From Negaprion brevirostris (Eukaryota), in NCBI GenBank assembly GCA_030324005.1, contig JARDVH010000132.1:77814252-77878251 (forward strand): DNA of 64,000 bases, given 5' to 3'. The position numbers were made by a program. This document shows, in pieces, positions 39,901 through 42,900 of this stretch. Position 1 is the first letter of the stretch, and every line of letters begins with the position of its first letter.

Positions 39901-42900
39901 TTTCAGAGGTGATGTTAGAGGCTTTAGTTACTGAGGTCGAAAAAGGAAAGATACTGTGTTTCTACAAGAGATCGGAACCCTCTCAGGGCATAACGTGAAG
40001 GGAGTGGGAGTATGTGGCCAGGGAGATTTATTCCTGAAGTCTGCCCCTGAGAATCTGGCTGTAATGCCAGAAAACGCTCAATGACTTCACACAGGTAGGC
40101 AAGGTCAGTGAATGCTTCTTCCAAAGATATCTGCTGCCAATGCACAAGCTCACATCACACAATGCACTGGACCTCCATCACACACCATTCAGCAATCATG
40201 ACTTATGCCTGTAAGATTGAGAAGTTTCAACTCGCCCTTACACACTTGCCAATAATATCAGCCTCACACCCACTTCTTGCAATTTCCACATACAGTCAGC
40301 TGTATCTAGGGCAAGCATATCATCCCAACATACTGCAACACAATCACTGACAGTCTCCCATATCTCCTGAAGAACAATGTGGTCCATAACAGGAGGAAAG
40401 AATAGAGAACCAGTGGAGGGCAGCATGCCTACATCAACTGATCCATCTGGTGCTCTGTATCATGGGGCCAACTCTGATCGAGGACAATTATTGAGAAGAT
40501 CGGGATAATTGGACTCCCTGTCTTCTGCCCCTTCTCACCCTCATGTTGTATCTGACATGAAATGCAAGTTGCACAGTGTGATCATTGACTTCATGGTTTT
40601 CACTCCACAGCTCTCACCTTCACCCCTTTCCCCTTTTGCAATTTTGCTTTCAGATAACCAAGATTTGCCACCTGGCCAACAAATGCAGCCTCAACTGGAA
40701 ACCTGAAATCTCTGGCGAAAGAGCACCATTTGATACTCATGGCCACCAGCTCAGATATAGGCATACACACACTTCCAGCAAATAGTGAGTCACCAGATAT
40801 GAACGAGCTGCAGCCAAGTCAACAGGAAGGATAACTCACCAGCACCACAGAGGACAAGGTCGTAGGTGAATTCTGGGATGTTTTTGACAGTCATACAAAG
40901 CAGAATGCTTGATGCATTGACAGGCCTGTTGACATTGGCAAGGAGCACGGAAGAATTCAACTCCAGTTTGTTGCAGGGCCTTGCACAAAGTTTGGAACCT
41001 ATCCTTTCCAGCGTGGTGGTGACCAACTCCATGAGAACACTTATGAGATCAGCTGCAAAGCAGCATATGATGGTCAATGTCTCAGTGTCTATTGAAGCAT
41101 AGGCAAAATCTATTTAATGTCTTAGAGCTGCAGTGGAGGATGGGCATATTTCTGTGCAAGCTGATACATACAGGTCCAGACTGCTGTTATTATAGCTGTG
41201 GAAACCAGTGCTCAAAGGGGTTCAGGGTGACATATCAATCCAGCAACCTGTGCTTTAGCACATTGCTTGATTACTTGGGAGCAATAATGGCAATGGTTGT
41301 GTGATGCACAAACCCATTGTCTGCTCTCAGGACGACAGCAACCATGCTCCCGTCACTGTTGCCAGAATTTTACCACCTCACCTGCCTGAGACCAATGTTC
41401 TGTGAGCCTTGCCTGCCCCAATTCCAGGGCAGGCACGCCAGCAAAATTCCGGCCTCTACCTTTGCCCCTGCTGTGACCACTCAGTTAGCCATTGCTAAGG
41501 TAGTTCACTATGAAGCCAGGGTGCACAGTATGTCCTGCAAGGCCATCTGCAATCCCTTTCTGTGAAAAGCAACAATTTTCCATCAGCCAAATTGTTGTCA
41601 CTGGAATATAACTGCATAGCAATAGTAGGTCAGATAAAGGAAGTGTAGGACAGACACTAAGAAAATACATTAGATGAATAACTTACTGTTGTATTATAGG
41701 AAATGTTATTTGATAAATCTGTTACAAAAATGTTTTTTGCTGGCAGCTTTTATAACAGGATTTTGAGTAATGTAACACTGTTACATAGCGGATGGATGGA
41801 AGATGGGGAATTATGGAGTAACTGTAATATGGGGATGGGAGAATAAGAGGCTGAGTCTCACGGACGGCCTGAATTTCTCTCTGGAGCTTGTGGGCAAACC
41901 ATCAGGTAAATCCTGGTTGGCATGGTTGTGGCCAGCTGCCATTGGTGGTCAGGTTCAAAGAGAGGGAGATTCTCCTCCTCAGACACTCTGCGCTCAATGG
42001 TGGAGGCCCTCTGTCATTTTTAATGACCACTCTTCACCCCCTGCAATTGTCAGGACATTAAGTCCTCTCTGACTGACCTCAGTGGTCAAGCCACTGTAAT
42101 CCCACCCCACTTATTTGCTTTTCCTGGCTCCAATGACAATGATCAATCTGAGATCTACTTCAATACTGCTCTTGGTAGGATTGTGTCACTGAAGACCTGC
42201 CAACCTCTGACTGGCTGCAGCTCTCAGAGGTGGGCACCACTCTGCAAGACAAATTGTTTCAGGCAATTCCTCCTGTAGGAGTCAGGAACCCCAGCAGAAG
42301 CCAATAGGCTGCCTGATTGGGATTTAATACCAATGGGATTCTCAGAAATGGCTCCCCTCTGTGACTATTAAATTCCGACCTTTGGTTCAGGATGCTGATT
42401 GCTGTTCCATGGCTTTCATTGTAGGTGCACTGTCCAGATGTGATCAGATAGTGGAGGGGAGTCATAAACCAAGTGTAGAGTTGGTATGCCTTGTCAGCCG
42501 CCAACCAATCTCTGGTTCTTTGTGGTAGGCCCAGTGATGGTGGGCATGACAAATTTATGCAAAATTCATGTGTCATGGCTTTTGCCAGGATAATGGGCAT
42601 TGGCTGAGAGCATGATTGCACACCAACTTCCTTCTCAGCCTTTTGGCTAAGGTCAAGCCCAAGATGGGGTGCAATGCCTTATCTTGTCAGCTCGGATCTT
42701 ATTTGTCCCTCTTCTGGGGACCATGAATTAGATTCGATTTGAATTTAGTTTTTTGGAGCAAACAAGGAGATGATTTCAGATCTGCCCAGTCCACTCTGAG
42801 CATTGGCTTCTTAAAAATTTTCTGCTGTTGGTAGACTTTAACATCACCCTGTTAATCTATGGGACTTGCAAAAGTATGTGTGTGCGTCTACGGTCCCTGC

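What the first reader, a model, noticed from the sequence alone, without database searches (positions are those of the whole stretch)
42627..42817. U2-snRNA-derived dispersed element with the branch-point-recognition region replaced (candidate shark snRNA-derived SINE family)
Seen: about 190 nt colinear with roughly U2 nt 1-150. Stem I (agcc-tttt-ggct), stem IIb (gtccc...gggac, still paired despite substitutions), an Sm-like U-run and stem III are recognisable. U2's TGTAGTA branch-recognition segment is replaced by cccaagatggggtgcaatgc, and an extra ttcgatttgaat precedes the Sm site. A second copy at 62265-62456 shares these non-U2 insertions, so the modified form itself was amplified rather than U2 retroposing twice. 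Established: snRNA-derived SINEs are rare (SINEU in crocodilians), and the site-specific LINEs Utopia and Keno target U2 around this region. Inference: this may be an undescribed or poorly described elasmobranch U2-derived SINE, or a variant snRNA lineage, possibly born from a U2-targeting retrotransposon scar.
Basis: partly seen in the sequence, partly recalled or inferred. Interest (0 to 1): 0.75.

Follow-up and report, generated by a model that had tools for sequence, protein, structure and literature searches.

The report
Decayed U2-derived repeat copies, elasmobranch DNA
Two old, degraded copies of a rearranged U2 spliceosomal RNA lie 20 kb apart in what looks like shark or ray DNA; they are most likely leftovers of a small retroposed repeat family, not working genes.

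Summary
Both sequences exist at the stated coordinates. Copy 1 (42627-42815, +) gets only a sub-threshold Rfam U2 hit: 24.7 bits against a gathering score of 46, E 0.0064 locally and 0.69 window-wide. Copy 2 (about 62263-62456, +) gets no U2 hit. A 19-nt U2 head motif finds exactly these two sites and none in 100 shuffles. The copies are homologous (E 8e-13) through both stretches that are not canonical U2.

Homology starts within 3-4 nt of U2 position 1. The flanks are unrelated, and the 3' ends differ. Copy 2 carries a duplicated 53-nt module and is more decayed than copy 1. The segment that replaces the branch-point region forms a hairpin in all three modules.

This fits RNA-mediated copies of a modified U2-like master, closest to crocodilian SINEU-3 and to tailless U2 retropseudogenes. 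It is not shown to be a SINE. There are only two loci, no significant target-site duplications, no poly(A), no shared LINE tail and no promoter motif. Genome copy number could not be checked.

The Utopia/Keno scar idea rests on position alone. A CR1-type reverse transcriptase in the window matches elasmobranch proteins best. Interest is modest; a genome-wide search would settle it.

The parts
42627..42657 (+). Copy 1: U2-derived head (RF00004 positions 1-31), with stem I AGCC-TTTT-GGCT at 42637-42648
   Evidence: cmscan alignment, posterior near 1 over these positions. The 19-nt head motif matches with 1 mismatch at 42639-42657; 0 of 100 shuffles gave any hit.
42658..42678 (+). Copy 1: 21-nt segment CCCAAGATGGGGTGCAATGCC in place of the U2 branch-point-recognition stretch
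   Evidence: The model's positions 32-46 are deleted in the alignment. The same segment recurs at 62306 with 4 of 21 mismatches and at 62359 with 6 of 21.
42660..42686 (+). Copy 1: 11-bp hairpin CAAGATGGGGT / GCCTTATCTTG with loop GCAAT
   Evidence: MFE fold. The same columns pair in 29 of 33 cells over the three modules, against 42-61% in slid controls; 1 pair is changed on both sides.
42679..42705 (+).
   Evidence: The degenerate 25-nt pattern matches 3 sites in the window (42681, 62329, 62382) against 0.03 expected. The model treats this stretch as a local end, and there is no U2 hit when it is scanned alone.
42705..42721 (+). Copy 1: hairpin GTCCC...GGGAC (stem IIb-like)
   Evidence: Read and present in the MFE fold. 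The counterpart in copy 2 (62406-62422) is only partly paired, by reading.
42733..42744 (+). Copy 1: extra TTCGATTTGAAT before the U-run, shared with copy 2 (CTAATTTGAAT, about 62435-62445)
   Evidence: It lies inside the 97-nt alignment. The model has 34 nt here where it expects 18.
42747..42756 (+). Copy 1: Sm-like AGTTTTTTGG
   Evidence: Aligned to the model's AUUUUUgg at low posterior. A T6 run would also stop RNA polymerase III (established knowledge).
42757..42815 (+). Copy 1: 3' part, absent from copy 2
   Evidence: cmscan puts it on model positions 146-192, but it gives no U2 hit alone. It has no similarity to the DNA downstream of copy 2 (200 of 300 shuffles as good).
62263..62293 (+). 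Copy 2: decayed U2 head
   Evidence: The head motif matches with 3 mismatches at 62275-62293. It aligns with 42630-42657.
62284..62334 (+). Copy 2: inverted repeat of about 18 bp, created by a copy-2-specific 12-nt piece (62288-62299) that is the reverse complement of 62320-62331 with one mismatch
   Evidence: Gap in the alignment and fold. Only weak microRNA-like matches far below threshold (21.7 bits against 88).
62301..62353 (+). Copy 2: module A
   Evidence: 81% identical (43 of 53) to the copy 1 module 42653-42705.
62354..62406 (+). Copy 2: module B (second copy of the module)
   Evidence: 76% identical to copy 1's module and only 65% to module A.
62406..62455 (+). Copy 2: stem IIb-like stretch, pre-Sm stretch and T6 run (62449-62454). 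Homology to copy 1 ends here.
   Evidence: Alignment, which ends at 42755/62455.
62456..62478 (+). A-rich stretch after copy 2 (ATTAGAAATAAAGTACCGAAAAG), a possible decayed tail
   Evidence: Reading only. The candidate direct repeat next to it is not significant (167 of 2000 shuffles and 142 of 1500 positional controls as good).

Best explanation
These are two inert, independently inserted and unequally old DNA copies of a modified U2-like RNA. They would be members of a U2 snRNA-derived non-autonomous retroposon family in an elasmobranch genome.

Shown:
- Both copies begin within 3-4 nt of U2 position 1 and carry the U2 head.
- Both share changes that no working U2 has. One is a 21-nt hairpin-forming segment where the branch-point sequence should be. 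The other is about 12 extra nt before the Sm-like U-run.
- Their flanks are unrelated and their 3' ends differ.
- Copy 2 has the 53-nt module twice and is more decayed.

Inferred:
- A master locus made a U2-like transcript. RNA polymerase II from an outside promoter is the likely enzyme, because the internal T6 run would stop polymerase III.
- A LINE reverse transcriptase copied that RNA in trans, with 3' ends set at single-stranded stretches. Copy 2 ends at the U-run and copy 1 about 60 nt further on.
- The doubled module of copy 2 arose by partial duplication or by 5' addition through template switching, as described for crocodilian SINEU-1.
- Neither copy does anything now.
For: - Head motif: exactly 2 sites, 0 of 100 shuffles with any hit.
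- Sub-threshold U2 match that spans copy 1 from model position 1.
- Copy-to-copy homology with E 8e-13 and 5e-9, running through the non-U2 segments. Head plus module scores 70 against a null of 18 +/- 3.5, 0 of 300.
- No flank similarity: upstream windows align only at the head; downstream, 200 of 300 shuffles score as well. The flanks are not repeated elsewhere in the window.
- Module identities are c1-c2A 81%, c1-c2B 76% and c2A-c2B 65%. Lineage-specific changes in 47 columns are c1 2, c2A 8 and c2B 7, giving P = 0.044 for c1 having 2 or fewer of 17 under equal rates. Copy 1 is therefore nearer the ancestor, as expected for insertions of different age from a conserved master. A single local DNA duplication does not predict this.
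- The hairpin is kept in 29 of 33 cells.
- Both copies fold better than all 200 shuffles, z -3.1 and -2.9.
- Precedents: SINEU-3 is a U2 with a shared internal change. SINEU-1 shows partial duplications and repeated 5' additions (PMC4494074, Results part 1 and Discussion read). Tailless retropseudogenes of U2 are 5'-complete and truncated in single-stranded regions (PMC5322556, passages).
Against: - Only 2 loci in 64 kb, both on the + strand and 19.6 kb apart. Profiles built from them find nothing else (best other hits E 0.17 and above).
- Target-site duplications are not significant. For copy 1 the best match is reached by 35 of 2000 shuffles and 52 of 1500 positional controls, but its left half lies 21 nt from the element. 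For copy 2 the figures are 167 of 2000 and 142 of 1500.
- There is no poly(A), whereas all SINEU groups have one (PMC4494074).
- There is no shared 3' tail, no partner LINE was identified and no promoter motif was found.
- The U2 assignment of everything beyond the head is weak by the covariance model.
- The rate asymmetry rests on 17 changes.
- Copy number in the genome is unknown.
Confidence: 0.55

Rival explanations
1. These are low-copy retropseudogenes of an expressed variant U2-like snRNA gene. A divergent U2 paralogue was transcribed from its own snRNA promoter, and a few transcripts were copied by LINE machinery. No self-sustaining family exists.
For: The structural evidence is the same as for the main reading: 5'-complete copies with different 3' ends and shared derived changes. 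Only 2 loci were seen. There is no poly(A), and the truncation points fit tailless retropseudogenes (PMC5322556, passages).
Against: - A U2 paralogue without the branch-point sequence has no known reason to stay expressed long enough to give insertions of different age.
- Copy 2's doubled module implies structural variants of the source.
- Two copies in one 64-kb window would be a large coincidence if the genome held only a handful. That is an inference, and the window was picked by a reader.
Confidence: 0.2
2. These are DNA-level relics: remains of a dispersed or tandem cluster of U2 (variant) genes or pseudogenes, duplicated as DNA and then decayed, with no retroposition.
For: Both copies are on the same strand, 19.6 kb apart. 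Copy 2 lies inside a local tandem duplication (62048-62645 against 62651-62854). An exact ATGCAAAT octamer lies 5-12 nt upstream of copy 2, and a near-octamer lies about 60 nt upstream of copy 1. U2 genes are tandemly arrayed in many animals (recalled).
Against: - Homology stops at the RNA 5' end in both copies, and nothing upstream or downstream aligns.
- Unit 2 of the tandem duplication around copy 2 lacks the U2-like sequence.
- No periodic array was found.
- No PSE-like motif was found.
- The unequal decay of the copies is not expected from one duplication.
Confidence: 0.15
3. These are working small-RNA genes: a lineage-specific U2-like RNA that keeps the U6-pairing head and an Sm site but not branch-point pairing, or a hairpin precursor of small RNAs.
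For: Both copies fold better than 200 of 200 shuffles. The hairpin is kept across the three modules, with one pair changed on both sides. Copy 1's stem IIb-like hairpin is intact.
Against: - The copies are 75-81% identical, with decay in the head, the stems and the U-run context.
- Covariation is not above the shuffles (113-337 of 500 shuffles reach the observed values).
- No promoter motif was found.
- Copy 2 lacks the 3' third.
- RF00004 is below threshold or absent.
- The microRNA-like matches are far below threshold.
Confidence: 0.04
4. Only the first 31 nt come from U2. The body is of another origin, such as a LINE-derived or other repeat-derived body, or a Utopia/Keno scar. The Sm-like run and later 'U2' blocks would then be chance.
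For: - The covariance model credits mainly positions 1-31. The middle alone and the 3' part alone give no U2 hit.
- SINEU-1J has just a short U2-derived 5' piece on an unrelated body (PMC4494074).
- Utopia and Keno insert next to U2 nt 39 (PMC4640811, passages).
- One copy of another repeat family (43586-43606, minus strand) resembles the non-U2 segment. Copy 2 against 43450-43760(-) is matched by only 7 of 500 shuffles.
Against: - The full-length model alignment runs from position 1 to 192.
- By my recollection of vertebrate U2, which I could not test with a typed reference, the stretch after the U-run in copy 1 carries several colinear exact U2 blocks.
- By eye, 42663-42684 matches 13 of 22 positions of the Rfam consensus 25-46 printed. 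That fits a short tandem duplication plus decay rather than foreign DNA.
- Profiles of the other repeat family give no hit on either copy even at E <= 100.
Confidence: 0.06

Closest known systems
SINEU, especially SINEU-3 (crocodilians; Kojima 2015, PMC4494074)
   Same: Short dispersed elements whose 5' end is the 5' end of U2. SINEU-3 is essentially a U2 with one shared internal rearrangement. SINEU-1 subfamilies show partial duplications and repeated 5' additions of U2 pieces. An internal oligo-T argues against polymerase III. The copies are old and their TSDs are hard to see.
   Different: - SINEU-3 has an internal deletion of about 50 bp; here there are insertions or replacements (about +6 and +16 nt by the model alignment).
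- All SINEU groups end in poly(A); these copies do not.
- SINEU prefers Mariner-N4_AMi targets and is tied to Tx1-Mar. Nothing of that kind could be tested here.
- Kojima reported no SINEU outside crocodilians.
- Sequence relatedness to SINEU could not be tested, because no Repbase or Dfam copy was on hand and the figures are not held.
Tailless retropseudogenes of U2 (Schmitz 2004; Noll et al. 2015, PMC5322556)
   Same: They are complete at the 5' end, truncated at the 3' end in single-stranded regions, and lack an oligo(A) tail. Copy 2 ends at the Sm-like U-run.
   Different: Those copies derive from the working RNA, so they do not share derived indels, and they are defined by clear 8-35-nt TSDs. 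Here the two copies share non-U2 changes and the TSDs are not significant. The phenomenon was described as tied to therian LINE1.
U2 spliceosomal RNA gene (Rfam RF00004)
   Same: The head with stem I and the U6-pairing stretch, an Sm-like U-run, and a stem IIb-like hairpin in copy 1.
   Different: The score is 24.7 bits against a gathering score of 46 for copy 1, and copy 2 gets no hit. The branch-point-recognition sequence is absent. No promoter motif was found, and copy 2 lacks the 3' third.
U2 genes disrupted by the site-specific LINEs Utopia and Keno (PMC4640811)
   Same: The altered stretch (about U2 nt 32-43) lies next to their insertion point. Downstream U2 starts at nt 39, and the target motifs quoted in the paper include TGTAGTATCTG.
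   Different: No LINE sequence or 3' end is present, only 21 nt, and that stretch can also be read as a diverged short duplication or an inverted duplication. The passages read list Keno in frogs, fish, lancelet and hydra. Sharks are not mentioned (0 occurrences of 'shark').

Membership tests
SINEU (snRNA-headed SINEs, Kojima 2015) | The 5' region derives from the U1 or U2 snRNA | tested here: met
   Model positions 1-31 are aligned. The head motif matches at both copies, with 0 of 100 shuffles giving any hit.
SINEU (snRNA-headed SINEs, Kojima 2015) | Many dispersed copies of nearly the same structure sharing diagnostic internal changes (a retrotransposition unit) | tested here: inconclusive
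   The shared derived changes are shown, but only 2 loci were seen in 64 kb. No genome was available to count copies.
SINEU (snRNA-headed SINEs, Kojima 2015) | 3' poly(A) tail | tested here: not met
   Copy 1 is followed by TTAAAAATTTT only. Copy 2 is followed by a 23-nt A-rich stretch, not a run. Decay of an old tail cannot be excluded.
SINEU (snRNA-headed SINEs, Kojima 2015) | Target-site duplications, or another mark of LINE-mediated integration | tested here: inconclusive
   The best flank matches are reached by 35 of 2000 shuffles (copy 1, misplaced by 21 nt) and 167 of 2000 shuffles (copy 2).
SINEU (snRNA-headed SINEs, Kojima 2015) | Sequence relatedness to SINEU-1, -2 or -3 consensus sequences; Tx1-Mar partner and Mariner-N4 target preference | not testable with these tools
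   No Repbase or Dfam copy was available. The paper's alignment figure and supplements were not seen.
U2 snRNA gene (RF00004) | Covariance-model score at or above the gathering score (46 bits) | tested here: not met
   0 matches at gathering threshold. Copy 1 scores 24.7 bits. Copy 2 gets no hit at E <= 10.
U2 snRNA gene (RF00004) | Branch-point-recognition sequence (GUAGUA) after the head | tested here: not met
   Model positions 32-46 are deleted in the alignment. Neither copy contains GTAGTA (reading).
U2 snRNA gene (RF00004) | snRNA-type promoter (PSE near -55) and 3' box | tested here: not met
   A recalled mammalian PSE consensus with up to 3 mismatches gives 15 hits against 15.3 expected, none within 100 nt upstream of either copy. 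The 3' box was judged by eye only. The elasmobranch PSE may differ.
Tailless retropseudogenes (Noll et al. 2015) | 5'-complete, 3'-truncated by at least 10 nt, no A tail | tested here: met
   Both copies start at the head. Copy 2 ends at the U-run. By my reading copy 1 ends before stem IV, although the model places its end on stem IV.
Tailless retropseudogenes (Noll et al. 2015) | Flanking TSDs of 8-35 nt at 70% identity or more | tested here: inconclusive
   figures as given above.
Tailless retropseudogenes (Noll et al. 2015) | Copy of the working cellular RNA | tested here: not met
   The two copies share segments that the U2 model does not have.

The most novel reading that the evidence does not exclude
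Elasmobranchs carry an abundant U2-headed retroposon family of their own, with hundreds to tens of thousands of copies, that has not been described in print. It would have arisen independently of crocodilian SINEU. In it the branch-point stretch of U2 was turned into a stable hairpin, and modules were added or doubled over time. That would be a second vertebrate lineage in which a polymerase II snRNA transcript became a SINE-like element.
Probability: 0.35. Interest if true: 0.55.

Novelty: new member of a known kind. Interest (0 to 1): 0.35.

Why it matters
SINE-like elements with snRNA heads have so far been described only in crocodilians (Kojima 2015). How such elements are transcribed, without an internal polymerase III promoter, is an open question raised in that paper.

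A second, independent family in cartilaginous fishes would show that the route from snRNA to retroposon is repeatable. It would also offer an old, slowly evolving genome in which master copies, 5' extensions and the partner LINE could be traced.

If instead only a few copies exist, these are ordinary decayed U2 pseudogenes. Their only practical value would be for repeat annotation.

Tried and rejected
1. Rfam at gathering threshold gave no match in the window. Scans of parts also gave no U2 hit: copy 2, the middle of copy 1 and the 3' part of copy 1.

2. More copies in the window. blastn with word size 7 and three nhmmer profiles found none. The best other hits had E 0.17 and above.

3. One scan of genome contigs (bacterial and archaeal genomes) with a 25-nt degenerate family pattern. 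It gave 2 loci in planctomycete MAGs, 55-56% G+C. They match only the 25 nt, with no extension. I take them as chance hits unrelated to the finding. That collection holds no shark genome, so this says nothing about copy number.

4. An extra partial head upstream of copy 1 (42560-42626): not significant, 105 of 300 shuffles as good.

5. Target-site duplications: not significant.

6. A tandem array around copy 2. TRF finds none. There is only a two-unit local duplication whose second unit lacks the U2-like sequence.

7. Origin of the non-U2 segment from another repeat family (copies at 43521-43739, 10564-10781, 45068-45251 and 21451-21549). One copy resembles it, but profiles of that family give no hit on either U2-like copy at E <= 100. 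Rejected as chance.

8. PSE-like motif: hits at chance level and none nearby. The bacterial promoter and terminator scan does not apply to this DNA.

9. ARAGORN found no tRNA.

10. Pfam on the ORF at 3992-4357 gave nothing even at E <= 10.

11. Literature. Searches found no paper describing a U2- or snRNA-derived repeat in sharks, rays or chimaeras. One search was swamped by 'SINEUP'. One search was badly designed and is uninformative.

Not checked:
- The source genome and other elasmobranch genomes.
- Dfam and Repbase.
- The closed collections metagenome contigs and viral contigs.
- Any small-RNA data.
- The figures and supplements of the papers cited.
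Full report
**What is there.** Rfam finds nothing in the window at gathering thresholds. With permissive thresholds the U2 model RF00004 matches 42627-42815 on the + strand at 24.7 bits, against a gathering score of 46. 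The E-value is 0.0064 when 601 nt are searched and 0.69 when the whole window is searched.

The alignment credits three parts: model positions 1-31 (the U2 5' end with stem I and the stretch that pairs with U6), the Sm-like U-run, and a 3' hairpin. Model positions 32-46, which hold the branch-point-recognition sequence, are deleted. The two following stem regions are passed over as local ends: 41 nt where the model has 20, and 34 where it has 18.

Scanned alone, the middle (42645-42765) and the 3' part (42738-42812) give no U2 hit. By the covariance model only the head is solid. It is solid: a 19-nt head motif taken from the consensus printed matches, with up to 3 mismatches, exactly two sites in 64 kb. 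These are 42639 (1 mismatch) and 62275 (3 mismatches), and none of 100 shuffles gave any match.

The model instead places the end of copy 1 on stem IV. Rfam's U2 model spans all eukaryotes and is weakly conserved in its 3' half. That probably explains the low score.

**The second copy.** Copy 2 alone is not recognised as U2, but it is clearly homologous to copy 1.
- 42659-42755 aligns with 62360-62455 at 75% over 97 nt, E 8e-13.
- 42653-42705 aligns with 62301-62353 at 81% over 53 nt, E 5e-9.
- Head plus module (42630-42705 against 62266-62353) scores 70 against a null of 18 +/- 3.5, reached by 0 of 300 shuffles.

The 21-nt segment of copy 1 recurs at 62306 with 4 mismatches and at 62359 with 6. 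The extra piece before the U-run is shared too. The key observation therefore holds: a modified form was copied, not U2 twice.

- It holds the 53-nt module twice (A at 62301-62353, B at 62354-62406).
- A 12-nt piece (62288-62299) is the reverse complement of nearby sequence and makes an inverted repeat of about 18 bp.
- Homology to copy 1 ends at the U-run (62455), so copy 1's last 60 nt or so have no counterpart.

**RNA-mediated or DNA duplication.** Homology between the copies starts at 42630/62266, within 3-4 nt of model position 1. Upstream windows align only at the head. Downstream windows are no better than shuffles, with 200 of 300 as good. The flanks are not repeated elsewhere in the window.

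The three modules are unequally diverged: c1-c2A 81%, c1-c2B 76%, c2A-c2B 65%. In 47 comparable columns the lineage-specific changes number 2 for copy 1, 8 for module A and 7 for module B. I left out the first six columns because of a 1-nt shift in module B. Under equal rates, the chance that copy 1 has 2 or fewer of the 17 changes is 0.044.

Copy 1 is thus nearer the common ancestor. One of its two 'own' states is a CpG that both others read as TpG. This pattern fits insertions of different age from a conserved source. It does not fit one local duplication. The sample is small and the test is borderline.

**What argues against a SINE.**
- No further copy was found in the window by blastn or by three profiles.
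- Target-site duplications are not significant. Copy 1's best flank match is reached by 35 of 2000 shuffles and 52 of 1500 positional controls, and its left half lies 21 nt from the element. For copy 2 the figures are 167 of 2000 and 142 of 1500.
- There is no poly(A). Copy 2 is followed by an A-rich 23 nt.
- The copies share no 3' tail, so a partner LINE of the stringent kind is not indicated.
- I could not count copies in the genome.

**The replaced segment.** In copy 1 the 21-nt segment, together with the following TTATCTTG, forms an 11-bp hairpin. The same columns pair in 29 of 33 cells across the three modules, against 42-61% when the partners are slid. One pair is changed on both sides, but the shuffle control is not exceeded. 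With three sequences, and a structure taken from one of them, that control says little. The hairpin was therefore present in the ancestor; selection for it is not shown.

I see three possible origins and cannot choose among them.
- A short tandem duplication of the end of the head, followed by decay. By eye, 42663-42684 matches 13 of 22 positions of the Rfam consensus 25-46 printed.
- An inverted, snap-back duplication of the adjacent stretch. Copy 2's extra 12-nt inverted piece shows that such events happened here.
- Foreign DNA.

Those elements leave downstream U2 starting at nt 39 (PMC4640811, passages read). No LINE-like sequence is present. A resemblance to one copy of another repeat family at 43586-43606 did not hold up at family level.

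**Gene or relic.**
- Neither copy reaches the U2 threshold, and the branch-point sequence is gone.
- A recalled PSE consensus finds nothing within 100 nt upstream; window-wide it gives 15 hits against 15.3 expected.
- An exact octamer 5-12 nt upstream of copy 2 is noted but is not at the position expected for an snRNA enhancer.
- Both copies fold better than all 200 shuffles. Inheritance of U2 stems and the new hairpins would explain that.

I take both to be inert relics.

**Source organism.** A CR1-type reverse transcriptase fragment (46552-47064, minus strand; RVT_1) has its best named relatives in Scyliorhinus torazame (73%), Hemiscyllium, Hypanus, Mobula and Scyliorhinus canicula. The window is therefore elasmobranch, shark or ray, and I do not take it for human. 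One possible exon (see 'noticed in passing') was scanned as a single ORF only. The N stretches were left as they are; none touches either copy.

**Comparison with what is known.** The nearest described things are:
- Crocodilian SINEU, above all SINEU-3. It is a U2 with one shared internal change, about 1,600 copies, with an internal oligo-T and unknown transcription. SINEU-1 has partial duplications and repeated 5' additions. I read the abstract, Results part 1 and the Discussion of PMC4494074; figures and supplements were not seen.
- Tailless U2 retropseudogenes (PMC5322556, passages).

The present copies work like these, by inference. Membership in SINEU fails on the poly(A) tail and is untested for sequence relatedness. 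Membership in the tailless class fails because the copies share changes the working RNA lacks.

Kojima reported no SINEU outside crocodilians. My searches of the held library found no description of a U2- or snRNA-derived repeat in cartilaginous fishes (two searches were uninformative). Repeat databases, which may hold an automatically built entry, could not be consulted.

**Verdict.** The most likely reading (0.55) is two old copies of a U2-derived retroposon of the SINEU-3 or tailless-pseudogene kind. That would be a new member of a known kind if the family proves abundant. A single genome-wide search would settle it. Interest is 0.35.

Noticed in passing
window 62048-62854: A local two-unit tandem duplication: 62048-62094 plus 62496-62645 correspond to 62651-62854 (69-80% identity). 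About 400 nt (62095-62495) are present only in the first unit and contain copy 2. No duplication was seen at the junctions.
   Followed up: partly
window 62250-62257 and 42556-42568: An exact ATGCAAAT octamer lies 5-12 nt upstream of copy 2, and TATGCAAAATTCA lies about 60 nt upstream of copy 1. The octamer occurs 11 times in the window against 6.7 expected. This may be chance.
   Followed up: partly
window 43196-43511 and at least 8 other places (e.g. 9237-9510, 30811-30984, 32859-33042, 49108-49349, 58552-58684, 60030-60216): An abundant SINE-like repeat family, 65-84% identical between copies. It is far more common in the window than the U2-like sequence. ARAGORN calls no tRNA in it.
   Followed up: no
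window 43521-43739 (-), 10564-10781 (-), 45068-45251 (+), 21451-21549 (-): Another dispersed repeat family. One copy has a 21-nt stretch that resembles the non-U2 segment of the U2-like copies, but family profiles do not match them.
   Followed up: yes
window 46552-47064 (-), 27246-27485 (+), 29555-30022 (-): Retroelement fragments: a CR1-type reverse transcriptase (RVT_1, E 1.4e-10) interrupted by a masked stretch, and an integrase core domain (rve, E 7e-9).
   Followed up: partly
one search hit list (P0002, P0035, P0049): Proteins labelled Carnobacterium maltaromaticum and Klebsiella pneumoniae are 51-71% identical to the window's CR1-type reverse transcriptase. They lie on contigs of 1.6-3 kb. 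These are probably vertebrate DNA in bacterial assemblies.
   Followed up: no
window about 4190-4290 (+), inside ORF 3992-4360: By eye and from recollection only, the translation (...[32 protein letters not shown]) looks like an exon of a class IIa histone deacetylase. If so, both U2-like copies may lie in sense orientation within or downstream of that gene. Pfam gave no hit on the ORF, and it was not searched further.
   Followed up: partly
window, 16 stretches of N (e.g. 22052-22836, 45787-46550, 60284-60655): 3,151 N in all. They were left as they are, and none lies within 1.5 kb of either U2-like copy.
   Followed up: no
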